DNA of 64,000 nucleotides from an uncultured Gammaproteobacteria bacterium (GTDB lineage: Bacteria; Patescibacteriota; Microgenomatia; Levybacterales; GWA1-39-11). The position numbers and the translations under genes were made by a program. The notes under the pieces were generated by a model. The model searched no databases. It was not told the origin of the DNA and saw nothing but the letters and a program-made list of their open reading frames with translations. This document shows, piece after piece, positions 2,298-26,951 of the stretch. Position 1 is the first letter of the stretch; each line of letters opens with the position of its first letter. Location: positions 1,377 through 65,376 of the forward strand of contig CAZYWG010000010.1 in NCBI GenBank assembly GCA_964651815.1, read 5' to 3'.

Positions 2298-3026
2298 TTA
2301 TTTGGATGCTTTCTTCATCCAGTCGTGAGCAAAAATTTCTGCTCTTCCTTTTTCTATTCCTTCTATTAATTTTGTTGCAACAAATTCCGGCGAATCCACT
2401 GGAGGCAAACCCTCAGTACGTGTATCGACTCCCCAATTCTCATTTTCACCAATACCGTTTTTGTAAAAATCAGTTTTAGTGATGTATGGATAGATTACAC
2501 TGACGCCTATTTTATATTTTGAAAACTCTTCGCGTGCTGTCAAGCTCAGTGCAACAAGCGCTCGCTTTAACGAGGCATATGCAGCAAGACCCGGGATATT
2601 CATTAAAGCCGTCCCGGAACTCACATTTACAATATACCCTTTTCCTTGTTTTTTCATGATTGGAAAAACGCATTGCATTGCAATAAGTGGACCTGACAAA
2701 TTTAATTCAAAAAGAGCTCTATATTTTTTAGGGTCTATGGCTTCTACTTCACTTCTATAACCGCGACCGGCGTTATTTACAAGAATGTCAATTCTGCCAT
2801 AATGTTTTAAAACTTTTTTAACCATATCTTGTATCTCACTTTTCTTAGACATATCGCATGTAACAACGAACGAGCTTGGCAACTCTCCTGAAATCTTTTC
2901 AAGCTTTTTTTTTGACCGCGCAACAAGTGCCACTTTTGCAGCGCGTTTTGAAAACAAACGCGCTACGGCCTCCCCTATCCCTTCCGAAGCACCAGTCACA
3001 ATGACAACTCTATCTTTAAATTGCAT
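2298..3026 (-). CDS. Short-chain dehydrogenase/reductase (SDR) family oxidoreductase
   Basis: TGASxGIG cofactor motif (VIVTGASEGIGEAVA), NNAG, and catalytic YxxxK (YASLKRAL). Confidence 0.75.
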   Translation of the reverse strand: MQFKDRVVIVTGASEGIGEAVARLFSKRAAKVALVARSKKKLEKISGELPSSFVVTCDMSKKSEIQDMVKKVLKHYGRIDILVNNAGRGYRSEVEAIDPKKYRALFELNLSGPLIAMQCVFPIMKKQGKGYIVNVSSGTALMNIPGLAAYASLKRALVALSLTAREEFSKYKIGVSVIYPYITKTDFYKNGIGENENWGVDTRTEGLPPVDSPEFVATKLIEGIEKGRAEIFAHDWMKKASK

Positions 3027-12430: not shown

Positions 12431-12721
12431 TTATAGATTTCCCTGTCTATTACCACAAACAGCGCTATTGTTTAGTCCTGTCTGCTCTCCGTTAGCACCT
12501 CCTGCTAGATTGTTATCTTTTCCAAAATAACCAAATGCCCCTGAACCTGCTCCTGAGTCACATTGAGCTCCAACTTCTGTGGCTTGTTGTCTTCCGGGAT
12601 TATCATTATATCTATCTATTCCCGGTGTTGAATTTCCTGCAGCGAATGCCGGCACTACCAAACTCCCACACATTACTACAGTAGCTGCTGTCGTAAATGC
12701 AATTTTTTTAATATTTAACAT
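12431..12721 (-). CDS. Small secreted Gly-rich 2-Cys protein (paralog family with 12931..13185)
   Basis: Signal peptide MLNIKKIAFTTAATVVMCGSLVVPAFAA, Gly/Asn-rich mature part with 2 Cys. Strong RBS AAAGGAGGTGAATAT. Confidence 0.5.
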   Translation of the reverse strand: MLNIKKIAFTTAATVVMCGSLVVPAFAAGNSTPGIDRYNDNPGRQQATEVGAQCDSGAGSGAFGYFGKDNNLAGGANGEQTGLNNSAVCGNRQGNL

Positions 12722-13243: not shown

Positions 13244-13975
13244 CTACGGAGTTACTGTAGGACCTGCTCCTAAGTTTTTGCCTTGTGTGGCAAAGAAACT
13301 TACGCAATCTCCCTGATTCTTAAATTTGTGACCTTGACCATCGTTAAGATTTTTCCAGCCATCTTTCTTACAGTCATTAACAGTTGGCAAAATCTCTGTT
13401 ATTACTACATTATCCAAAGCAGGACCAAAAGCGCCAGGGATAGTACTTGTAAAACTGAGCGTTGAACTCGTTCCGGTTGCTACAAAAGAATATGAGTGAT
13501 TTTCCCACATCATATTGGTAAGACTATTCCCTTTTGCACTTGTGTCATAGCTATAAGTTGCCGGTGAACCTCCACCGGTTGCATTAATAGTTACTTGTTT
13601 ATTGCTTGGACTATAATAAGGATCGTTCACATCCGAACGGCTATCCGGATTTCCAGACAAATCAAAAGTGACATTGTATTTTCCTCCAGCAACAGTTGTA
13701 AGGGTTTGACTAATAGATCCTGTTGTTAAACCATTAAGATCTATACTCCGTTGTAAATCAGATGCAACCCAATAATTACCGATCCAATCTACGCTACCAG
13801 TATCCACATTCCAACCAGCAATACTGCTGTTGGGGGCGACAAGTGTATCGAATGTCTGCCCTGTGTAACTGCCTTCAAAACTTCCATTAGAACCAACAGC
13901 AAAAGCTGCTCCCGCAACGCTTCCAAATAAAAGTGCTGATGCGGCTGCACTTATTAAAATTTTCTTTATATTCAT
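13244..13975 (-). CDS. Secreted DUF642 / choice-of-anchor-C-like domain protein
   Basis: Signal peptide MNIKKILISAAASALLFGSVAGAAFA. NGSFE...GW.VDTGSVDWIG...DLNG pattern typical of DUF642. Confidence 0.5.
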   Translation of the reverse strand: MNIKKILISAAASALLFGSVAGAAFAVGSNGSFEGSYTGQTFDTLVAPNSSIAGWNVDTGSVDWIGNYWVASDLQRSIDLNGLTTGSISQTLTTVAGGKYNVTFDLSGNPDSRSDVNDPYYSPSNKQVTINATGGGSPATYSYDTSAKGNSLTNMMWENHSYSFVATGTSSTLSFTSTIPGAFGPALDNVVITEILPTVNDCKKDGWKNLNDGQGHKFKNQGDCVSFFATQGKNLGAGPTVTP

Positions 13976-18177: not shown

Positions 18178-19962
18178 CTATATATCTTCTTTCAAAACGA
18201 CGTAATTTTCAAGTGCTAAAATATCAAGGCCTGATGTTTTAAAAGTGTTAAACGCATTTTCAGGACTATTTACAACCGGCTCTCCCTTCAAATTAAATGA
18301 CGTATTCATAAGGACGTAGACTCCTGTTTTTTTCCCAAACGAGGAAATTATATCGTAATAGCGTGAATTTTGCTTCCTGTTGATAATTTGGACGCGCCCA
18401 CTTCCGTCAACGTGAGTCACAGCAGGAATGATTTTTCTTTTTGATATTTTAACCGGAAAAACACCAAGCATAAATTGAGTCAAATATTTATGTTCTAATT
18501 TTCCTACTTCAAAGTAATCGCCGATTTTTCCTTCGAGAGTTACCGGTGCAAAAGGCCTATATGGTTCCCTGAATTTTATTTTTGTATTAACAATTTCCTT
18601 CATTTCTTCAGTTCTTGGAGAAGCCATAATAGACCGCGCTCCAAGCGCTCTTGGACCCCACTCGGCTCTACCATGAAAAAATCCAATCACTTTTTCTTTT
18701 GCTAAAGCGTCCGCCAGAAAATTCACGAGCTTTTTTTCATCAGGGATTTTTGTGAATTTTATTTTATTTTTGCGGAGAAACTTTTCTATCTCGGAATTAT
18801 CATATCCAATCCCAAAATAACAATTGTCTTGGACGAATTTCCGGGGATTATTTAGAATAGTGTGATACACAAATAATGCAGCACCCATTGAAGCTCCGTC
18901 ATCCCCTGCTGCCGGTTGGACAAATACTCTTTTGAAAGGTCCTTCCTGCAATAATACCCCGTTTGCAACGCTGTTAAGCCCCACTCCACCCGCGATAACC
19001 AGATTTTCCATTTTTGTTTTATTATGTAATTCATTCGCAAGGTTCAAAAGTTGTTCTTCAGTAAATTTCTGGATTGATGCGGCAATGTCTGCGTATTTTT
19101 GGTTTAAACGGCAAAGTTCTTCATAATTTTTAGGCTTGTCACCAAAGTATGAAGGATACCCTGAAGATTTTGTGAAGAAATATAAATCATGCGGACGGGG
19201 CTTCCCAAAAAGCTTTGCAAATTTTGCGTTGTAAGATTTATCAGCTGATTTGTGAAAACTAAAATATTCCATCTTTAAAGAATAAGAGCCGTCAGGATGC
19301 GAGTTTATGAGTTTGCGAACTTTTTCTAAATATTTTGGTTTTCCGTATGGCGCCATTCCCATAACTTTGTATTCCCCATCATTTACTTCAAACCCAAGAA
19401 AAGCTGTAAAAACAGAATACAAAAGTCCTATGCTATGTGGAAATTTTATTTCTTTTAAAACCGTAATTTTTTTACCTTTTCCTACACCCAAAGTTGTTGT
19501 AGTCCATTCTCCCACACCGTCAACTGTCAAAATTGCTGCTTCTTCAAAACCTGACGGATAAAACGCGGACGCCGCATGTGAAATATGGTGTGGGACAAAT
19601 AATATTTTTGAGGGGTCTATTTTTAGCTTGTCGGAAATGATAGATCTGACCCAAAGTTTGTCAGTTAAAAAATTTACCATTCCCTTTGCAAAAAGGCGGC
19701 TTGATACTGGATATGTTGAGAGCGCTGACATTAAAACCCTCTGGAATTTCCAAAAAGGTTTTTCATAAAAAACAATATGCTCTACGTCTTTTATTTTTAT
19801 TCCGGCAAACCTAAGACAAAAATCAATGGCAAGTTCCGGAAATTCACTGTCATGTTTTTTACGGCTGAATCTTTCTTCTGCACTGGCCGCAACAACGCGG
19901 CCGTCCTTTATAAGACAGACCGCCGCTTCATGATAAAAACAAGAGATTCCAAGAATATACAT
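18178..19962 (-). CDS. Carbamoyltransferase (NodU/CmcH/TobZ family). Start taken at the internal Met (MYILGISCFYHEAA...), not the first ATG at 20016.
   Basis: N-terminal ILGISCFYHEAAVCL...AASAEERFSRKKHD, and C-terminal YRPFAPV, VTHVDGSGRVQ, VLMNTSFN motifs. Confidence 0.75.
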   Translation of the reverse strand: MYILGISCFYHEAAVCLIKDGRVVAASAEERFSRKKHDSEFPELAIDFCLRFAGIKIKDVEHIVFYEKPFWKFQRVLMSALSTYPVSSRLFAKGMVNFLTDKLWVRSIISDKLKIDPSKILFVPHHISHAASAFYPSGFEEAAILTVDGVGEWTTTTLGVGKGKKITVLKEIKFPHSIGLLYSVFTAFLGFEVNDGEYKVMGMAPYGKPKYLEKVRKLINSHPDGSYSLKMEYFSFHKSADKSYNAKFAKLFGKPRPHDLYFFTKSSGYPSYFGDKPKNYEELCRLNQKYADIAASIQKFTEEQLLNLANELHNKTKMENLVIAGGVGLNSVANGVLLQEGPFKRVFVQPAAGDDGASMGAALFVYHTILNNPRKFVQDNCYFGIGYDNSEIEKFLRKNKIKFTKIPDEKKLVNFLADALAKEKVIGFFHGRAEWGPRALGARSIMASPRTEEMKEIVNTKIKFREPYRPFAPVTLEGKIGDYFEVGKLEHKYLTQFMLGVFPVKISKRKIIPAVTHVDGSGRVQIINRKQNSRYYDIISSFGKKTGVYVLMNTSFNLKGEPVVNSPENAFNTFKTSGLDILALENYVVLKEDI

Positions 19963-19963
19963 T

Positions 19964-20197
19964 TTAATATGGCTTTCGCGCCATCTCCAGACTTTCTTCA
20001 GGGTGTTCCCATTCATTAAAATTAGATTTTCTGTTTTTGGGTTTTATGTTAAGTGGATCAGAAAAATAACGGAGTATTAAACCTACAACGGACAGGACAA
20101 TAAAATAAAAAACTGTAAACAAAACTTGGGCTTGAAAATTTCCAATGATGTGGGCAAAACTAAGCCATTTCTTCCATGCACTTTTTAATAACTTCAT
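19964..20197 (-). CDS. Small membrane protein (77 aa) of the type commonly encoded next to carbamoyltransferases
   Basis: Single TM with a basic tail. Tightly coupled to neighbours on both sides. Confidence 0.45.
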   Translation of the reverse strand: MKLLKSAWKKWLSFAHIIGNFQAQVLFTVFYFIVLSVVGLILRYFSDPLNIKPKNRKSNFNEWEHPEESLEMARKPY

Positions 20198-21327
20198 TTC
20201 TTCATATCTCTTAGACTTTTTACGATTGGGACAATTTTATCATAAAGTTTGTCTGCCGCAAGAGCATGGACGTACTCATTTGGATGGGAATCAAAATTAT
20301 TTACCATAAGGCTGGTATTTTTTGTTTTAACAAGATATGGCTCGAGGTCTATAACCTCGTCATTCTGCTTTTTAAAATATGCATCCATTGTGTGATGAAT
20401 CCCAGCCGCCGGGTAATTTTTGTTGAGCAAAAAAAGGAATGGGAAAACAACAACAACTACCTTGTGTGTTGTGGTATTTTGTTGTAATACCGCTGAGAAA
20501 GTTGCTACATCATCAAGGTGCATACGCAGAACAGGCGAGTTTGTGAATTGTGAAAGATCTGCAATTCTCAAATCGCGGAATGTATTGCCGTATGTTGGGG
20601 AAAGTTTCCAATAAGCGTAGTCAAAGAAAAAAGACTGATCCAAGAAAAAATGCATGACCGGATTTATGCTATTAAACCTTTTTAAGATTATGCTTCCACC
20701 AGTACTCCCTTTACACGGCTGAATATCATTTGGGTAATACTCCCAAACTATCAGGTCAAAATTTAGTTGTTTGACGCGGTTAAATTCTATGATTTCAGAG
20801 CATGTATCAAGACCTGAAACACCCATGTTAAAAACTTCTGTTTTAAACCCGTGATCATTTAATTTTTTCTCAAGCAAATTTGAAAAACGGTTGTTTACAT
20901 TTTTGATCCCGTACCCCATTGCTAAAGAATCTCCAACAACACCAATCCTTATGACCCCAGCCTTTTTGGCGAGTTGAAAATCGCGGTCGCGATAACCGTA
21001 GGTATTAAAAACTACGTGTCTTGCCATCCATCTAACATTTGTGTCAAGAAATCCAAGACCGTCGGACTGGTCGTATCTGTAACGGAAATAAGCCTCAAAT
21101 CCACTGAAGATTAAAATTAAGAGAAAAAGTGCAAAAAACGCCGCAATTAGTTTTTTTTTACTCTCTTCTGAGAGCCTAGACTTGAAGATTTTATTGGCAA
21201 AATAAATTAGGAAAACAAATGACGCAAAAATAAGGACCAGGAAAACTTTAAAATCATTCAAAAAATAAGATAAATGCGCCCAAATCTTAAACATCATAGA
21301 ATCCCTAAATGATAGATAAATACCCAA
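20194..21327 (-). CDS. Membrane-anchored SGNH/GDSL-family hydrolase or acyl-esterase
   Basis: IGVVGDSLAMGYG (GDS(L) nucleophile motif) after an N-terminal TM. Confidence 0.55.
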   Translation of the reverse strand: MGIYLSFRDSMMFKIWAHLSYFLNDFKVFLVLIFASFVFLIYFANKIFKSRLSEESKKKLIAAFFALFLLILIFSGFEAYFRYRYDQSDGLGFLDTNVRWMARHVVFNTYGYRDRDFQLAKKAGVIRIGVVGDSLAMGYGIKNVNNRFSNLLEKKLNDHGFKTEVFNMGVSGLDTCSEIIEFNRVKQLNFDLIVWEYYPNDIQPCKGSTGGSIILKRFNSINPVMHFFLDQSFFFDYAYWKLSPTYGNTFRDLRIADLSQFTNSPVLRMHLDDVATFSAVLQQNTTTHKVVVVVFPFLFLLNKNYPAAGIHHTMDAYFKKQNDEVIDLEPYLVKTKNTSLMVNNFDSHPNEYVHALAADKLYDKIVPIVKSLRDMKK

Positions 21328-21391
21328 AGCAAATCAAGAGCCTCTTTGACAACAAATTCTAGTAAAAATTTGCTACAATTGATATTCCCGA

Positions 21392-22633
21392 ATGGATAAT
21401 TCAACCGAAGGTCGATACCCCGCCTTAAAATATTCAGACTTTAGATATTTCTGGTTTGGGCAATTTGTCTCCAATATTGGGACGCAGATGCAGATTGTCG
21501 CGCTCAATTGGCATATTTATGTCCTGACCGGATCAGCCGTTGCGCTTGGAATAATTGGCCTCTCCAGATTTATTCCAATTGTAATTTTTTCCCTAATTGG
21601 TGGAAGTTTTGCAGACGTACACAATAGAAAAGTAGTTCAATTCATTACACAAAGCACTCTCGCTTTTCTCTCTCTGGTTCTGGCTTTCACAACTTTTACT
21701 CATACCGTAAATCCTTTGATAATTTATGCTGTGACAATTTTATCTGCAGTAGTTTTATCTTTTGATATGCCGGCGCGTCAGTCTTTAGTCCCAAATTTAG
21801 TTGATAAAAAACATCTTCCCTCTGCTATGAGCCTTAATTTTATTATGTTTCAGACAGCGCTTGTCATTGGACCTGCGATTGGCGGATTCCTCATTGGTTA
21901 TGCGGGTCTTGCACCAATATACGGAATTAACGCGATTTCTTTTGGCGCAGTAATAATATCTCTACTGCTACTTAAAAATAACGGCGAACCAATCCACCGC
22001 GGCGAAGCACCTACAATTTCTTTTGCTTCAATGTTTGAAGGTCTCAAATTTGTCAGAAGTAAAACTCTCATTTGGTCAACAATGATCCTTGATTTCTTCT
22101 CAACTTTTTTTGCGTCAGCAACTGTTATTCTTCCAATTTTTGCAAAAGATATTTTAAAAGTTGGACCTGAAGGCCTTGGAATTTTATATTCAGCCCCATC
22201 AGTTGGCGCTGTTTTAATGGGTCTTGTACTTGCCAACACTCACAAAATGAAAAACCAGGGAAAAATTCTTTTAGTCTCAGTTGCCGTTTTTGGCGTCGCA
22301 ACTATTGTCTTTGGACTTTCCCATAATTTTCTGCTTTCTGTTGCGGCACTTTCTGTAGTAGGTGCTGGAGATTCTGTCTCGACTATTATTAGGAATGTTA
22401 TCCGCAATATAGAAACTCCCGATTCAATCCGTGGACGCATGACTTCAATCAACATGATTTTCTTTATGGGAGGGCCCCAACTTGGAGAATTCGAGGCAGG
22501 AATTTTGGCTGCTGCCGTTGGGGGACCATTGTCTGTTGTTGTAGGAGGAATTGGGACTTTAATAGTAGTGAGCGCCGTAACCTTTTTTATTCCGCAAGTC
22601 AGGGCCTACCAAAACCATGAAGATAAAAGCTAG
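21392..22633 (+). CDS. MFS transporter
   Basis: 12 TM with N-terminal FRYFWFGQFVSNIGTQMQ signature. Confidence 0.65.
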   Translation: MDNSTEGRYPALKYSDFRYFWFGQFVSNIGTQMQIVALNWHIYVLTGSAVALGIIGLSRFIPIVIFSLIGGSFADVHNRKVVQFITQSTLAFLSLVLAFTTFTHTVNPLIIYAVTILSAVVLSFDMPARQSLVPNLVDKKHLPSAMSLNFIMFQTALVIGPAIGGFLIGYAGLAPIYGINAISFGAVIISLLLLKNNGEPIHRGEAPTISFASMFEGLKFVRSKTLIWSTMILDFFSTFFASATVILPIFAKDILKVGPEGLGILYSAPSVGAVLMGLVLANTHKMKNQGKILLVSVAVFGVATIVFGLSHNFLLSVAALSVVGAGDSVSTIIRNVIRNIETPDSIRGRMTSINMIFFMGGPQLGEFEAGILAAAVGGPLSVVVGGIGTLIVVSAVTFFIPQVRAYQNHEDKS

Positions 22634-23592
22634 GCTGCTTCTTGGGCTTGCGAAGATGAAGCTCTTTTTGCCAATCTGCCTTCAATCCACCATCTTGGAT
22701 AAGTCAGCTCGGTCTTTGGATTTCTAACTTTGTGTTCATCCCCTAATTTTCTAATTGATGAAATCAGTCCTTGGCTTTCTCTTGCAATTAAACGTTCGTG
22801 ATAATTATCTCCTGCAGGGACTTCTTCCTCCGGTACAATAAAATCTCCACACATTCCTTCAACAAAAGTCTCATAGCCGGAAATGCTTTCCATAAGTGGC
22901 ACGCCTACATGAACCAACTCGTCGTGTCTTGAAATCATTCTAAAACCTGCATTATTAAACTGTTTTGCATAATGGATCAAAGGAAGCGGATTAAAAGATT
23001 TTTCCCGGTCGCGTCCCGCTTTAAGTTCTTTTCTGGTTTCTACTTTCCACCTACCCCAATAAGACATAACATCCTGTGGCATAGATTCTTCCATAAATGT
23101 GCTATTCCAAATTAATACTCCGTCATCTGCCAAATATTCAGCAAGCTCTTTTAAATCTTCCTCTCTTTCTTCATCGGGAATTTCATGAATGGCGTTACCT
23201 ATAACAATTACATCCAGGCTCCCTTTCTTTATATGTCCTGAAAGATCTTTTGCAGTACCTTGAAAAAAACTTACCTCCCTTTCTCCATCACTTTTGACGG
23301 TTTGCCGCGCCACTTCTACTGATCTAGCATTGGGATCACACCCCATGATTGTTGCTTTTCCCCAAGATAAGTCACGAGCGAGACTTGCCATAAGTCCTGT
23401 CCCACAACCGTAGTCAAGAACTCGGACACCGGGTTTTTGGAAAAGATCGGCATTGCGCCTCATAAAACTCTGATTTATGGAAACATATTGGGGATCTTCT
23501 GCGGTTGTTTCATACTTAGGCTCAACACGGTTAATTCCACCTGTACCTTCTACTGGTCTTCCTGGTTGTGCTGCACTTTTTTCTGTTGTCAT
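22630..23592 (-). CDS. Class I SAM-dependent methyltransferase
   Basis: VLDYGCGTGLMASLA motif I; DVIVIGNAIHE motif. Confidence 0.65.
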   Translation of the reverse strand: MTTEKSAAQPGRPVEGTGGINRVEPKYETTAEDPQYVSINQSFMRRNADLFQKPGVRVLDYGCGTGLMASLARDLSWGKATIMGCDPNARSVEVARQTVKSDGEREVSFFQGTAKDLSGHIKKGSLDVIVIGNAIHEIPDEEREEDLKELAEYLADDGVLIWNSTFMEESMPQDVMSYWGRWKVETRKELKAGRDREKSFNPLPLIHYAKQFNNAGFRMISRHDELVHVGVPLMESISGYETFVEGMCGDFIVPEEEVPAGDNYHERLIARESQGLISSIRKLGDEHKVRNPKTELTYPRWWIEGRLAKRASSSQAQEAA

Positions 23593-23626
23593 AATGTTTT
23601 GTTTATATCAATCTTAGGATTTGAAA

Positions 23627-24664
23627 TTAAGCATATATCAATAGCCCTGAATCATCAACTCGAGGTTCTTCACCTTTTCCTACCATTGGTAAAACAAATC
23701 CGGTTTCCGTCATATTCGGACTAAGTAAATGGGCGATCACTTCCCCAACTTCACCACGTTTAAGACCTCTTTCTGCATCTGTTGCTATTCGTATATCTTC
23801 TGCTTGCTCGGGTGTAACATCAGCAACCAGTTCTGTGCCAGGAACAAGTCCAGGCGCAAGAATATTAATCCCTATTTTCTCTGTTGGAGGAAAATTCTTA
23901 AGCTCAAGTGCTACGTCTTTCAGAAGACTCTCAAAAAACGCCTTTGGCGGACCATAAGAAGGTTGAACAACAGTGTGTGCAGCTGCAACGCTCGAAATAT
24001 AAACAAATCTTCCACTTCTCTGCTTGACCATTTGTTTTATAACTGCATGTGTTAGCTCTAATGGGGCATTCAAGTTAATCACCAATTCAGCTTTAAATTC
24101 ATCAAGTGGAAAACGGAAAAACGCTTTATCCTTTCTGCGGGCGGCAACCTGAACAAATCCATCAACCCTTTCAAATTTGTTCAAAGTAACTTCCATTATT
24201 CTTTCAGTCTCGCCGGGTTCTGTAATATCTGATGGAATCCATAATGAGTCTCGCCCGCTAAGTTTAGAAGCTTTACCCATAAGCTCTTTTACATCATCAG
24301 ATTCACTTGACTGTCTTGAAACTCCAACTACTCTTGCGCCGCGGCGTGCAGCTGATAGCAATCCGGCTTCACCTATCCCTCCTCTTGCTCCAATAAAAAG
24401 AACAACTTGATCAGCAAGATCCTGAGTAACAATTGCCTCTTTATTTCTGGCGTGTGAATATCCCGTGTCTTCTAATTGTCGATCGTAATATGGAGTATTT
24501 ATACCATATAATGTATTAGGTACTGCCTCAAACAATGGTTTTTCACCAAATGGAGAGGGCCTTCTTCCGCCTCTTTCGCGTCTTGCTTCACCCCGGGTTT
24601 TTGCTTGAGATTGTTCCGCTCCGTCTGGTGCACCTGGTTGCGGCATGTCTTTTGGCATTGTCAT
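23627..24664 (-). CDS. SDR-family oxidoreductase with charged N-terminal extension
   Basis: VLFIGARGGIGEAG Rossmann motif; YGPPKAF (YxxxK). Confidence 0.55.
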   Translation of the reverse strand: MTMPKDMPQPGAPDGAEQSQAKTRGEARRERGGRRPSPFGEKPLFEAVPNTLYGINTPYYDRQLEDTGYSHARNKEAIVTQDLADQVVLFIGARGGIGEAGLLSAARRGARVVGVSRQSSESDDVKELMGKASKLSGRDSLWIPSDITEPGETERIMEVTLNKFERVDGFVQVAARRKDKAFFRFPLDEFKAELVINLNAPLELTHAVIKQMVKQRSGRFVYISSVAAAHTVVQPSYGPPKAFFESLLKDVALELKNFPPTEKIGINILAPGLVPGTELVADVTPEQAEDIRIATDAERGLKRGEVGEVIAHLLSPNMTETGFVLPMVGKGEEPRVDDSGLLIYA

Positions 24665-25551
24665 TATTGACTCCCTCCTCTTAAGCTTTCTGCTCGTGCT
24701 ATCTCCCTTTCGATAACTTTATTTAATGTACTCGCAGGAAACATTAACATATCCATTCTTTTAACTTCCGCAATTTTTCCTCTGGATGAAAATGTAGATG
24801 TACCACCTGATACTACCCTGTCTACTTTACTTACGACAGGTCTCATGACAAGATAATCCCCTAACTGTGCTCTTGAGGAAAATGTTGCATCATAAAAATC
24901 CGTGAACATAGGAAGATTAGCAAGAGCACTATCAAAATCACCGTTTGCTGTCCCCGCTGCTTGTGCTGCGCGTTCAATTTCCTGAGTTGGGAGGGTTCCC
25001 GTAAGCCCTTCATATTCTGCAAGATCAACTACCTTAAACTTCATGCCCTCAATAGTTGAAAGCTTTGAATTAGTATTTGTTTTAACAGTTGCATTATACA
25101 CCGGACGCTCCAGATCATTTACAGTTCTTTCCAGGTCTATCCCCATCATTGCACCTTCAACAATTATATTTTCAAAGTGTCCGTGTTCAATACTTTCCGG
25201 CATTAAAGTTTTTCCCGGATGTACATTCTGATATCTATTTTGAGCGAGCTCAATAGCAGCTTGTGTCCTTTTCCATGCCGGCACAACTCTAAAATGACCT
25301 ACAATAAGATCCGGGGTGATTAAAATTTGTGTTGAGGAACCCGCAGTATTTCCTTCCGCATTTTTTACAAACCTTATACCTGACTCTGCAATTTGATCTG
25401 CGGTTACTGCTGCTTGTACAAAATCTCTTCCCCAACCTCTGTCAACGTATATTGCGCTCTCTGCTTGATATATTCCACCCAGAACAGTTCTTAGATTTAC
25501 TCCGCTTGGGATTTCTGGGTGTGCTCCGGGTATTTCTCCTGTCATTGTCAT
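24664..25551 (-). CDS. Hypothetical protein (295 aa)
   Basis: No recognisable motif. Co-oriented and abutting its neighbours. Confidence 0.4.
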   Translation of the reverse strand: MTMTGEIPGAHPEIPSGVNLRTVLGGIYQAESAIYVDRGWGRDFVQAAVTADQIAESGIRFVKNAEGNTAGSSTQILITPDLIVGHFRVVPAWKRTQAAIELAQNRYQNVHPGKTLMPESIEHGHFENIIVEGAMMGIDLERTVNDLERPVYNATVKTNTNSKLSTIEGMKFKVVDLAEYEGLTGTLPTQEIERAAQAAGTANGDFDSALANLPMFTDFYDATFSSRAQLGDYLVMRPVVSKVDRVVSGGTSTFSSRGKIAEVKRMDMLMFPASTLNKVIEREIARAESLRGGSQ

Positions 25552-25593
25552 ATTAATTTTGTGTTTATATCAATTTATCCTATCTTTGTCAAT

Positions 25594-26664
25594 TTACAGA
25601 GGTATTTTTACTTTATAAATCGAGCTATCCTTTGGTAATTCATGCGCTATTTGTCCTCCAGGTCCAAATACATACAATTCTTCTGGGTATGAACCCCATT
25701 TTGTGGGGTCACTTTCAAGAACCATTCTCGTTGCCTTTGCCATATCTTGTTTTAGGATAAAACCTTCCTCCGCCTGCACCCTCTCCTCAGGAGATAACAA
25801 TTTAAAGAAAACCCCTAGATTACCTCCCACACCTGTGTCTACAATTAAGTGTCCTGGAATAACTGCTAAATATTTCTTCTTTTCTGCATAACTTGGTGCA
25901 ACCTCTCGAATCCATGAATGGAGCTTGAATTTTGGACCCTCTATTACGTGATAAAAGTTTGGAACTACCATACCATCCGGCCTTGCTCCCCAAATACTGT
26001 TATAGTCTATCCCCATTCCACCCTCAGGTAGCATTTCAAGTACTCCCTCAAATAATGCTTTAGGACCGTTGAAATTTACATCAAGTGAACCAGGCATACT
26101 CTCTTCGACTCCTGCTTGAATTATTTCATGAACAGGAGCGAGTCTTCTATCTCTTTCTTCCCCTTGATACCTTGAAGCAACTTCTATTTGAAGAGGAATT
26201 CTCCTTAAGAAACCACCCATTCCACCTGCTGCTGAATGCACAAAATCTGTTATGCCGCTTCTGCTCAAAATATCAAGAGTGCTATTAACCTGATCCATAT
26301 CGCCCAAATTAGCAGCCAAAACTGGAACATCTCGTCGTCCCAGAGTCACTAACGCAGGGACTATATTTTCACTTCCTACAGAACTTGCACCAAGAATCAA
26401 TTCTCCACCTAACGCATCTATCATTTGGGCTGTGAATAAACCGCTCCCTGATGTTCCTCCAGAAACAAATATTTTTCTCCCGGCAAGTGGTCTTCTTTCA
26501 CGGTCCTCCTGAGATACAATTCTGTCTATAAATGATAATTGCACGTTTCTTCTTTCTTTAGCACTTCCAGCTTTGGGTACAATTTTCCTAGCTTCTATTT
26601 CAGCTGAAAATTTTGAAGCGGCATCACCTAATCCTGCATATTCTGGGCCAATTAACATTGTCAT
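25594..26664 (-). CDS. Rossmann-fold protein with weak resemblance to trans-2-enoyl-CoA reductase (FabV/Ter)-type N-terminus
   Basis: KIFVSGGTSGSGLFTAQMI resembles the FabV GASxGYGLA motif. Weak. Confidence 0.35.
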   Translation of the reverse strand: MTMLIGPEYAGLGDAASKFSAEIEARKIVPKAGSAKERRNVQLSFIDRIVSQEDRERRPLAGRKIFVSGGTSGSGLFTAQMIDALGGELILGASSVGSENIVPALVTLGRRDVPVLAANLGDMDQVNSTLDILSRSGITDFVHSAAGGMGGFLRRIPLQIEVASRYQGEERDRRLAPVHEIIQAGVEESMPGSLDVNFNGPKALFEGVLEMLPEGGMGIDYNSIWGARPDGMVVPNFYHVIEGPKFKLHSWIREVAPSYAEKKKYLAVIPGHLIVDTGVGGNLGVFFKLLSPEERVQAEEGFILKQDMAKATRMVLESDPTKWGSYPEELYVFGPGGQIAHELPKDSSIYKVKIPL

Positions 26665-26951
26665 AGAATACGTTTATATCAGTAGGACAGGCTAAAATCA
26701 AGAGGTAGACATTACCAATTTTATGGAAGCAATATTACAGAAACCCGCTCTTAAAATTCTTGCATTTGCAACAAAGGGCGTTTACCCTGAGAGGATTCGA
26801 AGGGTTAAGATTTTGGAGTGACTGATTCAGGGGGACGCCCAACGAACTGTTGGAGGGGGAGGCTTTCCCCCGATGAGGGAACGAGAAAATTAGCCCGACT
26901 TGCAAGCAAGAGAGCTTTTGGTTCTTTTGTCGGCACAAAAGAACAAGAAAA
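26665..26951 (-). ncRNA. GC-rich, highly structured 287-nt leader or independent RNA upstream of 25594..26664 (candidate riboswitch or ncRNA)
   Basis: Nested GGGGGA/TCCCCC, AGGGT/ACCCT and GCCGAC/GTCGGC stems in an otherwise AT-rich genome. Only junk ORFs overlap it. Confidence 0.35.

What the first reader, a model, noticed from the sequence alone, without database searches (positions are those of the whole stretch)
22630..26951. GC-richer four-gene operon (methyltransferase–SDR–hypothetical–Rossmann protein) with a GC-rich structured 5' leader: candidate acquired biosynthetic or modification cassette
Genes 22630–26664 are co-oriented and tightly packed (shared or 1-nt junctions). Three of the four proteins start MTM/MTT... 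with charged Pro/Gly/Ala-rich N-termini. By eye the DNA is markedly GC-richer than flanking genes, with runs like GGTGCACCTGGTTGCGGCATG; this needs computation. The cassette is preceded by a 287-nt intergenic region full of GGGGG/CCCCC and AGGGT/ACCCT stems, which could be a riboswitch or attenuator. A methyltransferase, a reductase, a possible enoyl-reductase-like protein and an unknown protein suggest small-molecule or cell-envelope modification chemistry.
Basis: partly seen in the sequence, partly recalled or inferred. Interest (0 to 1): 0.55.

Follow-up and report, generated by a model that had tools for sequence, protein, structure and literature searches.

The report
Divergent fatty-acid-type reductase/dehydratase cassette in Levybacteria
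Four neighbouring genes in a tiny-genome (CPR, Levybacteria-like) bacterium encode very divergent versions of the enzymes that process the growing chain in fatty-acid or polyketide synthesis, plus a methyltransferase; they are not clearly foreign DNA and the "structured leader" in front of them is probably not a riboswitch.

Summary
GC is 41.4% against 39.5% for the window, and 15.5% of equal-sized windows are at least as high. GC3 is below average and codon usage is ordinary, so the small excess reflects Arg/Glu/Gly-rich proteins. The 287-nt spacer matches no Rfam family and folds only moderately better than shuffles.

The exact 10-mer TGATATAAAC occurs three times in 64 kb, each 8-12 nt before the ATG of genes 1, 2 and 4. 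It looks like an extended -10 promoter for leaderless mRNAs, a pattern common in this window and its relatives. The spacer therefore lies upstream of the promoter.

The "hypothetical" 295-aa protein is a tandem FabZ-like double hotdog with one composite His86/Glu193 site. It has only four distant relatives among 1.84 billion representative proteins. Gene 1 is a very divergent SDR with Tyr-x6-Lys spacing, gene 3 a FabG-like SDR, and gene 4 a class I SAM methyltransferase.

In relatives the gene-1-type SDR is fused to the hotdog protein. The locus sits beside recR, once next to FabF- and FabH-like synthases.

Best reading: a lineage-specific keto-reduction, dehydration and enoyl-reduction module plus methylation. 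Substrate and direction are unknown.

The parts
25594..26664 (-). g1: 356-aa highly divergent SDR-fold oxidoreductase. It has GGTSGSG at 69-75, HSAAGG at 143-148, Ser223, Tyr238-x6-Lys245 and IPGHLIVDT at 269-277. It is the proposed enoyl-reductase-type partner of g2.
   Evidence: No Pfam hit. Weak SDR hits cover the N-terminal part: NCBIfam E 1.5e-4 and PDB SDRs E 0.0036. hhalign against a small SDR profile gives E 4.3e-4 over residues 60-296. The only homologue is the C-terminal fragment on L002, at 43% identity. The AF2 single-sequence model failed, with pLDDT 37.6.
24664..25551 (-). g2: 295-aa tandem FabZ-like double-hotdog protein (predicted 3-hydroxyacyl dehydratase or enoyl hydratase). 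It has one composite site: His86 in the first hotdog, and Glu193/Gln197 on the central helix of the second.
   Evidence: No Pfam, NCBIfam or PDB hit for the single sequence. AF2 with a 5-sequence alignment gives pLDDT 83.7 and pTM 0.85, with two helix-in-sheet units. Foldseek finds 422 PDB hits at E<=1e-3, all shown being double-hotdog thioesterases or PKS/FAS DH domains, TM about 0.5. A family profile against the whole PDB puts FabZ in the top 8 places, best E 4.5e-5. hhalign against E. coli FabZ gives 94.6% / E 7e-8 for half 1 and 62.9% / E 7e-5 for half 2, while FabA, TesB and FadM give nothing. G85-H86-F87, Q190, E193 and Q197 are invariant.
23627..24664 (-). g3: 345-aa classical SDR, FabG-like ketoreductase type. 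It has GARGGIG at 92-98, Ser225 and Tyr237-x3-Lys241, plus an 85-residue Pro/Gly/Arg/Glu-rich N-terminal extension.
   Evidence: Pfam adh_short E 7e-29 and KR E 6e-9. The best NCBIfam model is 3-oxoacyl-ACP reductase at 91 bits, far below its equivalog cut-off of 298. phmmer with E. coli FabG gives E 1e-17. It is 28% identical to the L002 gene in the same position.
22630..23592 (-). g4: 320-aa class I SAM-dependent methyltransferase (motif I LDYGCGTG at 59-66) with a C-terminal extension of about 140 aa. Its 3' end overlaps the convergent MFS gene by 4 nt.
   Evidence: Pfam Methyltransf_25/31/11/12/23 at E 5e-16 to 1e-12. No NCBIfam model reaches its cut-off. It is 25% identical (E 2e-8) to the L002 gene in the same position.
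26672..26701 (-). Promoter-like element of g1: TTGATT, 17 nt, then TGA-TATAAA. The -10 hexamer ends 8 nt before the ATG, predicting a leaderless mRNA.
   Evidence: Sequence. The exact TGATATAAAC occurs only 3 times in the window.
25563..25592 (-). Promoter-like element of g2 (and g3): TTGACA, 17 nt, then TGA-TATAAA. The -10 hexamer ends 12 nt before the ATG.
   Evidence: The same layout (TTGACA, 17 nt, TGnTAT..., then 10-13 nt to the ATG) stands in front of the fused gene in L087 and L003.
23601..23630 (-). Promoter-like element of g4: TTAATT, 17 nt, then TGA-TATAAA. The -10 hexamer ends 9 nt before the ATG.
   Evidence: A 21-nt repeat, 90% identical, is shared with the g2 promoter.
24671..24679 (-). 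Shine-Dalgarno sequence AGGAGGGAG for g3. The g3 ATG shares one base with the g2 stop codon, indicating translational coupling.
26702..26951 (-). Structured GC-richer spacer upstream of the g1 promoter. It holds a 10-bp hairpin directly after the stop of the upstream glycosyltransferase-39-like gene (26921-26944), a terminator-like hairpin with a T-rich tail (26893-26907), and GC hairpins (26855-26871 and 26776-26840). It also holds an imperfect 18-nt direct repeat with 25-nt spacing (26821-26838 and 26846-26863). Its function is unknown. It probably contains the terminator of the upstream gene and possibly regulator sites.
   Evidence: No Rfam match. No similarity to any related locus or protein.

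Best explanation
The cassette is a lineage-specific, extremely divergent set of beta-carbon-processing enzymes of the fatty-acid/polyketide type, plus a methyltransferase. It lies in a Levybacteria-like (CPR/Patescibacteria) genome.

Proposed roles: g3 is a FabG-like ketoreductase. g2 is a tandem FabZ-like dehydratase in which His86 of the first hotdog and Glu193 of the second form a single active site, as the two subunits of a FabZ dimer do. g1 is a very divergent SDR with FabI-like Tyr-x6-Lys spacing and is the candidate enoyl reductase. g4 is a SAM methyltransferase that modifies the substrate or product. Together they would carry out keto-reduction, dehydration and enoyl-reduction on an acyl thioester (ACP- or CoA-bound) and methylate it. 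This could serve to build, elongate or remodel an acyl chain.

The g1-type SDR and g2 form the conserved core, and in four relatives they are one fused protein. Expression in this genome most likely comes from three extended -10 promoters placed 8-12 nt before the start codons of g1, g2 and g4, giving leaderless mRNAs. g3 is translationally coupled to g2 through a Shine-Dalgarno site. The 287-nt spacer is therefore not a 5' leader.

Shown here: folds and homologies, conserved catalytic residues, gene order, the fusions, the recR neighbourhood, and the occurrence of the promoter motif. Inferred: the enzymatic roles, the substrate, the direction of the pathway, and the transcription start sites.
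For: g2. The model is confident (pLDDT 83.7) and has a double-hotdog fold. An unbiased profile search of the PDB returns FabZ in its top 8 places, best E 4.5e-5. Both halves align to E. coli FabZ, with H86 on His54 and E193/Q197 on Glu68/Gln72. FabA, TesB and FadM give nothing. H86, E193 and Q197 are invariant in the family. A relative gives a sub-threshold Pfam FabA hit, E 0.0017, and plain phmmer with E. coli FabZ hits the L003 fusion at E 2.8e-4. FabZ's catalytic His and Glu come from different subunits (PMC5143422).

g3 and g4. Both have family hits above the Pfam thresholds.

g1. SDR motifs are present in the canonical order, and Lys245 lies 25 residues before the PG..DT motif. The corresponding spacing is 29 in FabG and 28 in FabI.

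Functional linkage. Three of the four distant g2 homologues (P0006-P0008), and the L087/L088 protein found later, carry an N-terminal SDR that also has Tyr-x6-Lys. The order g1-g2-g3-g4 is conserved on L002 at 43, 32, 28 and 25% identity. On L003, whose RecR is 83% identical, the fusion gene lies next to a FabF-like synthase (E 5e-81) and a FabH-like synthase (E 5e-28), and is followed by a g3-like gene.

Promoters. The exact TGATATAAAC occurs only three times in 64 kb, always at these gene starts. Of 60 genes, 16 have a -10-like hexamer 5-14 nt before the start, and 8 of the 9 TGn-extended hexamers fall in that range. Only 8 of 60 have a Shine-Dalgarno core. The same TTGACA, 17 nt, TGnTAT layout precedes the homologous genes in L087 and L003.
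Against: No condensing enzyme, ACP, malonyl transferase or PlsX was detectable in the 64-kb window, nor an ACP in the related contigs. A complete synthase is therefore not demonstrated for this organism.

On L087/L088 the fusion gene stands alone among unrelated genes.

g1's assignment rests on weak statistics. E-values are 1e-4 to 4e-4, there is no Pfam hit and no usable model. hhalign against FabI finds nothing, and homology between g1 and the fused SDR domain is only weakly supported at E 0.013.

The top Foldseek hits for g2 are thioesterases, with TM about 0.5, so thioesterase activity cannot be excluded by fold alone.

The KS/KASIII association is a single observation.

The promoter and leaderless reading is consensus-based, with no transcript data. 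On L002 the genes are 2 nt apart, with no room for internal promoters.
Confidence: 0.55

Rival explanations
1. Degradative or remodelling module resembling multifunctional enzyme type 2. The hotdog protein would act as an enoyl hydratase and the SDRs as 3-hydroxyacyl dehydrogenases, converting or trimming fatty acids scavenged from a host. The methyltransferase would esterify or modify the product.
For: The fused SDR plus double-hotdog architecture in relatives matches the SDR-hydratase-2 arrangement of peroxisomal MFE-2 (own knowledge). No KS or ACP is present in the window, and the fusion stands alone on L087. CPR bacteria are thought to depend on external lipids (PMC7242380; PMC12455944). 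FabZ-type enzymes are reversible (established biochemistry).
Against: The hotdog is FabZ-like, not MaoC/hydratase-2-like. Only one family member gave a MaoC hit, at E 0.19, whereas FabZ hits are significant. One relative has FabF- and FabH-like synthases adjacent. No thiolase or acyl-CoA dehydrogenase was seen among the neighbouring genes that were scanned.
Confidence: 0.2
2. Tailoring enzymes for a non-lipid small molecule or cell-envelope component. This would be a secondary-metabolite or glycoconjugate modification linked to the flanking glycosyltransferase-39-like, MFS, SGNH and carbamoyltransferase genes. The hotdog protein would act as a thioesterase or on an unrelated substrate.
For: Neighbouring genes encode envelope or export functions. 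The top Foldseek matches for g2 are thioesterases. All four proteins fall far below any equivalog cut-off.
Against: The neighbours are not conserved with the cassette. L002, L003, L087 and the ERZ27296333 contig have different flanks. The catalytic His/Glu pair of FabZ is invariant, and thioesterase controls give no profile match.
Confidence: 0.13
3. One reading: a recently acquired, GC-richer operon transcribed as one unit and controlled by a riboswitch or attenuator in a 287-nt structured 5' leader.
For: The spacer is the most GC-rich spacer of the window (43.6%) and folds better than shuffles, with z -4.1. The locus downstream of recR is variable, and the cassette is absent from 80 related species representatives.
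Against: GC and codon usage lie within the window's range, and GC3 is lower, not higher. There is no Rfam family. The fold excess is similar on both strands and comparable to other spacers. Much of it comes from a hairpin right after the upstream gene's stop codon. A promoter-like element lies 8 nt before the ATG. Related loci lack the spacer altogether. The relatives whose neighbours can be seen all belong to the same lineage.
Confidence: 0.07

Closest known systems
FabZ, 3-hydroxyacyl-ACP dehydratase of type II fatty-acid synthesis (E. coli b0180; PDB 6n3p, 8ayd)
   Same: Hotdog fold. The GHF...P motif aligns on the catalytic His, and ExxxQ on the central helix aligns on the catalytic Glu/Gln. 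The active site is formed between two hotdog units.
   Different: Two FabZ-like units are fused in one 295-aa chain. Only one His/Glu pair is retained, because the second half lacks the His. There is an extra N-terminal segment of about 60 residues. Identity is about 20%, and there is no Pfam or NCBIfam hit. In relatives it is fused to an SDR.
Double-hotdog dehydratase domains of animal FAS and modular PKS (His in the N-terminal pseudosubunit, Asp/Gln in the C-terminal one; Pasta et al. 2007, listed in the references of PMC5143422)
   Same: The same logic of one active site shared between two pseudosubunits. They appear among the Foldseek hits: 7zmf, 2cf2, 9nju.
   Different: This is a free-standing protein, or one fused to an SDR, not a megasynthase domain. 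At sequence level it is FabZ-like and does not carry the PKS HxxxGxxxxP motif. TM is only about 0.4-0.57.
FabG (3-oxoacyl-ACP reductase) and FabI/FabL-type enoyl-ACP reductases
   Same: g3 has the classical SDR motifs and its best model is FabG. g1 and the fused SDR domain share the Tyr-x6-Lys spacing of FabI (YNVMGLAK in E. coli FabI; YHVIEGPK in g1).
   Different: g3 reaches only 91 bits against a 298-bit equivalog cut-off and has an 85-aa N-terminal extension. g1 has no profile similarity to FabI, a classical glycine motif, an insertion of about 29 residues and a 55-residue N-terminal extension.
Peroxisomal multifunctional enzyme type 2 (SDR dehydrogenase + hydratase-2 double hotdog); own knowledge
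   Same: The domain order, SDR followed by double hotdog in one chain, as in P0006-P0008 and the L087 protein.
   Different: The hotdog here is FabZ-type, not MaoC/hydratase-2-type. In the window the two parts are separate genes.
Partial FAS-II gene sets reported in CPR (Nealsonbacteria; Probst et al. 2020, PMC7242380)
   Same: A CPR lineage carrying fatty-acid-synthase-like genes without a detectable ACP-handling machinery.
   Different: A different phylum-level group (Levybacteria-like). The proteins are so divergent that standard family models miss two of the four. The set includes an SDR-hotdog fusion and an added methyltransferase.

Membership tests
FabZ/FabA-like hotdog dehydratases (g2) | Hotdog fold (a long central helix wrapped by an antiparallel sheet) | tested here: met
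   The AF2 model (pLDDT 83.7) has two such units. Foldseek finds 422 PDB hotdog hits at E<=1e-3.
FabZ/FabA-like hotdog dehydratases (g2) | Catalytic His in the HF..P motif just before the central helix | tested here: met
   H86 aligns with E. coli FabZ His54 (hhalign 94.6%, E 7e-8) and is invariant in 6 family members.
FabZ/FabA-like hotdog dehydratases (g2) | Catalytic Glu (FabZ) on the central helix of the partner unit | tested here: met
   E193/Q197 of the second half align with FabZ E68/Q72 (E 7e-5, probability 63%) and are invariant. The statistics are weaker than for the His.
FabZ/FabA-like hotdog dehydratases (g2) | Score above the curated family threshold (Pfam PF07977 FabA) | tested here: not met
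   g2 has no Pfam or NCBIfam hit. The L087 relative reaches 18.4 bits against a 23-bit cut-off.
FabZ/FabA-like hotdog dehydratases (g2) | Single-hotdog subunit forming homodimers | tested here: not met
   Two hotdog units lie in one chain. It is therefore a variant architecture.
FabZ/FabA-like hotdog dehydratases (g2) | Dehydration of 3-hydroxyacyl-ACP | not testable with these tools
   This needs an enzyme assay.
Classical SDR / FabG-type ketoreductase (g3) | Pfam adh_short above gathering score, TGxxxGxG-type glycine motif, and a Ser...Tyr-x3-Lys catalytic set | tested here: met
   101 bits against a 26.6-bit cut-off. GARGGIG at 92-98, Ser225, Tyr237 and Lys241.
Classical SDR / FabG-type ketoreductase (g3) | FabG equivalog score (TIGR01830) | tested here: not met
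   91 bits against a cut-off of 298.
Enoyl-ACP reductase of the SDR type, FabI/FabL (g1) | Rossmann glycine motif and Tyr-x6-Lys catalytic spacing | tested here: met
   GGTSGSG at 69-75 and Y238-x6-K245, with K245 25 residues before the PG..DT motif. This is motif-level evidence only.
Enoyl-ACP reductase of the SDR type, FabI/FabL (g1) | Sequence or profile similarity to FabI/FabL, or a family model hit | tested here: not met
   No Pfam hit. hhalign against E. coli FabI gives no meaningful alignment. NCBIfam gives only generic SDR N-terminal hits.
Enoyl-ACP reductase of the SDR type, FabI/FabL (g1) | SDR fold confirmed by structure | tested here: inconclusive
   The single-sequence AF2 model has pLDDT 37.6.
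Class I SAM-dependent methyltransferase (g4) | Pfam methyltransferase domain above threshold, and SAM motif I | tested here: met
   Methyltransf_25 at 59.7 bits against a 27-bit cut-off. LDYGCGTG at 59-66.
Complete type II fatty-acid synthase | Condensing enzyme(s), ACP and malonyl-CoA:ACP transacylase encoded with the reductive enzymes | tested here: not met
   None was found in the 64-kb window with E. coli or L003 seeds. FabF- and FabH-like genes are present only on the related contig L003. No ACP is found on any related contig. The rest of the genome was not available.
Riboswitch or attenuator 5' leader (spacer 26665-26951) | Match to a described RNA family | tested here: not met
   Rfam 15 gathering and E<=10 scans find nothing relevant.
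Riboswitch or attenuator 5' leader (spacer 26665-26951) | Lies within the transcript, between the promoter and the start codon | tested here: inconclusive
   The only good promoter-like element ends 8 nt before the ATG, which places the structure upstream of it. There are no transcript data.
Riboswitch or attenuator 5' leader (spacer 26665-26951) | Structure conserved, with covariation, in homologous loci | not testable with these tools
   No homologous spacer was found. L001 is 100% identical, related loci lack the spacer, and blastn finds nothing.
Horizontally acquired island | Deviant base composition or codon usage | tested here: not met
   GC z 0.55-1.1, GC3 below the mean, codon distance within range.
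Horizontally acquired island | Patchy presence among close relatives | tested here: met
   Absent downstream of recR in 80 species-representative loci. Present in differing forms on L003, L087/L088 and the ERZ27296333 contig.
Horizontally acquired island | Close homologues in a donor lineage, or mobility genes or a tRNA at the borders | tested here: not met
   g1 and g2 have no homologues outside five rare clusters. The two tRNAs of the window lie more than 24 kb away. There are no viral relatives.

The most novel reading that the evidence does not exclude
A subclade of Levybacteria (CPR) carries its own very divergent, compact acyl-chain elongation or reduction system next to recR. It would consist of FabH- and FabF-like synthases, an enoyl-reductase-type SDR fused or paired with a tandem-FabZ dehydratase, and a FabG-like reductase. 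It may work without a canonical ACP. The window's variant adds a methyltransferase to make a methylated or otherwise modified acyl product. This would mean that some CPR bacteria can build or elongate acyl chains that standard annotation says they cannot make.
Probability: 0.25. Interest if true: 0.7.

Novelty: new variant of a known kind. Interest (0 to 1): 0.45.

Why it matters
CPR/Patescibacteria are generally described as unable to make fatty acids and dependent on host lipids (PMC7242380, PMC12455944). Two of the four proteins here escape all family models. The hotdog protein has only four distant relatives among 1.84 billion representative proteins. Yet it carries the FabZ catalytic pair, is fused to a reductase in relatives, and in one relative lies beside FabF- and FabH-like synthases.

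If these enzymes process acyl chains, then metabolic reconstructions of this CPR group under-call lipid-related capacity, because the genes are too divergent to annotate. The tandem-FabZ with one shared active site is also a free-standing bacterial counterpart of the pseudodimeric dehydratase domains of megasynthases.

On the practical side, the window shows that many genes in this genome are probably leaderless. This matters for any claim about '5' leaders' in such genomes.

Tried and rejected
- **Rfam.** Scans of the window and of the spacer found nothing relevant.
- **PADLOC.** Only the generic methyltransferase domain of g4 matched mad2, so this is not a defence system.
- **Word-indexed homologue searches for g1 and g2.** Both returned only themselves. 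The third search, with the family alignment, was swamped by the SDR domain.
- **L001** is 100% identical to the window, so it is not independent.
- **The search for related loci with the 5-sequence alignment** failed for lack of a conserved stretch.
- **Viral contigs** hold no relatives.
- **AF2 of g1 alone** was unusable, with pLDDT 37.6.
- **hhalign of g2 halves** against FabA, TesB and FadM was negative.
- **hhalign of g1 and the fused SDR domain against FabI** was negative.
- **My recollection that the fused SDR resembles FabL** was not borne out. FabL appears only as a weak N-terminal hit.
- **g1 against the fused SDR domain** gave only E 0.013, with a probably spurious register.
- **Search for KS, KASIII, ACP, FabD, PlsX and FabZ** in the window and related contigs found none, apart from those on L003.
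- **Spacer as a relic of coding sequence or a repeat.** blastn and tblastn found nothing.
- **BioC-type role for g4.** This was considered, but similarity is only 29.8 bits against a 185-bit cut-off and no biotin genes are nearby.
- **Literature searches** for leaderless translation in CPR and for tandem FabZ-SDR fusions gave nothing directly relevant.

Full report
**1. What is there**

Four ORFs lie head to tail on the minus strand:
- g1: 26664-25594, 356 aa
- g2: 25551-24664, 295 aa
- g3: 24664-23627, 345 aa
- g4: 23592-22630, 320 aa

The junctions are a 42-nt gap, a 1-nt overlap (TAATG) and a 34-nt gap. "Shared or 1-nt junctions" therefore holds for one junction of three. All four proteins begin MT(M/T). 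At DNA level three genes start ATGACAATG and one ATGACAACA. The 287-nt intergenic region 26665-26951 exists as described.

**2. Composition**

- The cassette is 41.4% GC against 39.45% for the window. Of equal-length sliding windows, 15.5% are at least as GC-rich.
- Per-gene GC z-scores are 0.55-1.1.
- The excess is in codon position 1 (z 1.2-2.8). GC3 is below the window mean (z -0.55 to -1.6).
- Codon-usage distance to the other genes is 0.061-0.092, against 0.074 +/- 0.013 and a maximum of 0.101 for the other long genes.
- The proteins are rich in Arg (2.1x), Glu (1.8x) and Met, and poor in Cys, Asn, Tyr, Thr, Ile and Lys.

**3. The spacer**

Rfam 15 finds only two tRNAs in the window. Nothing relevant appears in the spacer, even at E<=10.

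| Region folded | z-score |
|---|---|
| Whole spacer, tool (200 shuffles) | -4.1 |
| Whole spacer, my 40-shuffle control | -2.9 |
| Twelve other spacers folded (>=100 nt; a 13th, 767 nt, was skipped) | +0.9 to -4.6 |
| 153-nt GC-rich core, minus strand | -2.4 |
| 153-nt GC-rich core, plus strand | -2.1 |

The core shows no strand preference. Part of the signal is a perfect 10-bp hairpin directly after the stop codon of the upstream glycosyltransferase-39-like gene (26921-26944). A terminator-like hairpin follows at 26893-26907. The spacer has no similarity to any related locus or protein.

**4. Promoters**

The exact 10-mer TGATATAAAC occurs three times in the 64-kb window, all on the minus strand. 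Each lies 8-12 nt before the ATG of g1, g2 or g4. It reads as an extended -10 element (TGn-TATAAA).
- For g2 it is preceded, at 17 nt, by a perfect TTGACA.
- For g1 it is preceded by TTGATT.
- g3 instead has AGGAGGGAG, and its ATG overlaps the g2 stop.

This layout is general in the window. Of 60 genes, 16 have a -10-like hexamer ending 5-14 nt before the start, against roughly 0-6 per 5-nt bin elsewhere. Eight of the nine TGn-extended hexamers fall in that range, and only 8 genes have a Shine-Dalgarno core.

The homologous genes on L087 and L003, and the KASIII gene on L003, show the same arrangement: TTGACA (TTGTCT for KASIII), 17 nt, TGnTAT..., then 6-13 nt to the ATG.

My inference is three leaderless transcription units: g1, g2-g3 and g4. 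The structured spacer would then lie upstream of the g1 promoter, not in a 5' UTR. This rests on consensus matches and has no transcript evidence. On L002 the four genes are only 2 nt apart.

**5. The proteins**

*g4* is a class I SAM methyltransferase (Pfam E 5e-16). *g3* is a classical SDR (adh_short E 7e-29). Its best NCBIfam model is 3-oxoacyl-ACP reductase, but far below the cut-off. It carries an 85-residue N-terminal extension.

*g2* has no hit in Pfam, NCBIfam, PADLOC or the PDB as a single sequence. An exhaustive HMMER scan of 1.84 billion representative proteins found only four distant relatives, at 24-33% identity. The evidence for its identity is:
- With these relatives as alignment, AlphaFold2 gives a confident model (pLDDT 83.7, pTM 0.85) with two helix-in-sheet units.
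- Foldseek finds 422 PDB hits at E<=1e-3. All those shown are double-hotdog thioesterases or FAS/PKS dehydratase domains, with TM about 0.5.
- A family profile searched against all PDB sequences returns FabZ in its top eight places (best E 4.5e-5, including E. coli FabZ 6n3p), and 13 of its 17 listed hits are FabZ-type dehydratases.
- hhalign against E. coli FabZ gives 94.6% / E 7e-8 for the first half, with GHF on His54.
- For the second half it gives 62.9% / E 7e-5, with E193 and Q197 on Glu68 and Gln72.
- FabA, TesB and FadM give nothing.
- G85-H86-F87, Q190, E193 and Q197 are invariant in six family members.
- The second half has Glu, not His, at the position 14 residues before E193. The first half does not conserve the Glu position.

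The protein therefore has one composite His/Glu site. This matches the way FabZ's catalytic His and Glu come from different subunits (PMC5143422). It also matches the pseudosubunits of the animal FAS dehydratase (Pasta et al. 2007, cited in that paper).

*g1* has no Pfam hit. It shows weak SDR similarity in its N-terminal part (NCBIfam E 1.5e-4; PDB E 0.0036). hhalign against a small SDR profile gives E 4.3e-4 over residues 60-296. The motifs fall in the canonical order:
- GGTSGSG, then HSAAGG
- a 29-residue insertion
- VNFNG, then Ser223
- Tyr238-x6-Lys245, then IPGHLIVDT

The Tyr-x6-Lys spacing is that of FabI (YNVMGLAK in E. coli), but there is no profile similarity to FabI. The single-sequence model was unusable.

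**6. Relatives and context**

Three of the four g2 relatives are longer proteins of 469-568 aa. Each has an N-terminal SDR domain (Pfam E down to 2e-12) that also has an invariant Tyr-x6-Lys.

- **L002:** carries the same order. A g1-like C-terminus (43% identity), a g2-like gene (32%), a FabG-like SDR (28%; E. coli FabG E 1e-45) and a methyltransferase (25%, E 2e-8) follow one another.
- **L003:** begins with a RecR 83% identical to the window's. It then carries a FabF-like synthase (E 5e-81) on the other strand, a FabH-like synthase (E 5e-28), the fusion gene, and the start of a g3-like gene.
- **L087/L088:** Frr is 75% and RecR 80% identical. The order is frr-recR-fusion gene, followed by unrelated genes (beta-lactamase, glucose/sorbosone dehydrogenase, cupredoxin, Macro). 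The fusion protein gives a sub-threshold Pfam FabA hit, E 0.0017.
- **ERZ27296333 contig:** recR is directly followed by the fusion gene.

In the window the order is frr-recR-GT39-spacer-g1-g4. The best RecR matches among 185,579 species representatives are Candidatus Levyibacteriota MAGs, at 80% and below. None of the 80 retrieved recR loci carries the cassette. Synteny is kept upstream of recR and lost downstream. The module is therefore an accessory, variable feature of a Levybacteria subclade at a fixed position. It is not a compositionally foreign import.

No KS, KASIII, ACP, FabD, PlsX or ordinary FabZ is detectable in the 64-kb window, and no ACP in the related contigs.

**7. Interpretation**

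The best-supported reading is a set of enzymes for keto-reduction (g3), dehydration (g2) and enoyl-reduction (g1) of an acyl thioester, plus methylation (g4). The SDR-hotdog pair is the conserved core.

Fold, catalytic residues, fusion, gene order and the single KS/KASIII association are shown. The individual roles, the carrier (ACP or CoA), the direction and the product are inferred.

The main rival is an MFE-2-like hydratase/dehydrogenase used to remodel scavenged lipids. It fits the absence of condensing enzymes here and the reported lipid dependence of CPR bacteria (PMC7242380; PMC12455944). The hotdog is FabZ-type, however, and not MaoC-type. A thioesterase role is not excluded by fold alone.

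**8. Comparison and novelty**

Each part belongs to a known superfamily. The distinctive features are:
- the tandem FabZ with a single shared site
- its fusion or pairing with a Tyr-x6-Lys SDR
- the extreme divergence: two of four proteins escape all family models, and only five 50%-identity clusters exist world-wide
- the occurrence in a CPR lineage

FAS-II-like genes without ACP machinery have been noted in another CPR group, Nealsonbacteria (PMC7242380). I therefore rate this a new variant of a known kind, of moderate interest.

Noticed in passing
L002:347-391 and L002:1249-1293; L003:4574-4696; window 24560-24664 (-): A 45-nt direct repeat (84% identical) lies at codons ~8-22 of two consecutive genes on L002 and encodes (P)(E/D)GAQHFRAERQ. 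The same peptide motif opens the gene after the fusion on L003 (GAPDGAQNFRAGK). A degenerate form opens the window's g3 (GAPDGAEQSQAK). It could be an N-terminal docking or targeting tag, or a 5' coding element kept for leaderless translation.
   Followed up: partly
window 23592-23612 / 25554-25574 and 24642-24664 / 25529-25551: The promoter regions of g4 and g2 share a 21-nt repeat (90% identical). The first 23 nt of g3 and g2 are 78% identical. The shared MTM start of the proteins is therefore a DNA-level repeat.
   Followed up: partly
whole window: The genome looks largely leaderless. Of 60 genes, 16 have a -10-like hexamer ending 5-14 nt before the start, 8 of them with a TGn extension. 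Only 8 of 60 have a Shine-Dalgarno core.
   Followed up: partly
window 12431-12721 (-) and 13244-13975 (-): Two neighbouring secreted proteins (96 aa and 243 aa, both with signal peptides) share an SD-containing 5' UTR (gaatttctaaaggaggtgaata) and signal-peptide DNA, 74% identical over 90 nt.
   Followed up: partly
window 18178-22633: A trio of carbamoyltransferase (612 aa), a small SxtJ-like membrane protein and an SGNH/GDSL hydrolase lies next to a divergently transcribed MFS_3 exporter. These look like envelope or polysaccharide modification genes. The 3' end of the MFS gene overlaps that of g4 by 4 nt.
   Followed up: no
window 26821-26838 and 26846-26863: An imperfect 18-nt direct repeat with 25-nt spacing lies in the spacer. 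On the minus strand it reads GCGTCCCCCTGAATCAGT / GCCTCCCCCTCCAACAGT. It could be a pair of regulator binding sites about 150-190 nt upstream of g1.
   Followed up: no
window 2298-3026 (-): A second, more conventional FabG-like SDR (242 aa; E. coli FabG E 2e-23) lies 20 kb from the cassette. It has its own TGGTATAAT element 7 nt before the ATG.
   Followed up: no
L006-L014 and other loci (record titles): Several MAG records whose RecR and Frr are 60-76% identical to this Levybacteria-like window, and syntenic with it, are titled 'uncultured Gammaproteobacteria bacterium'. These are probably mislabelled database records.
   Followed up: no
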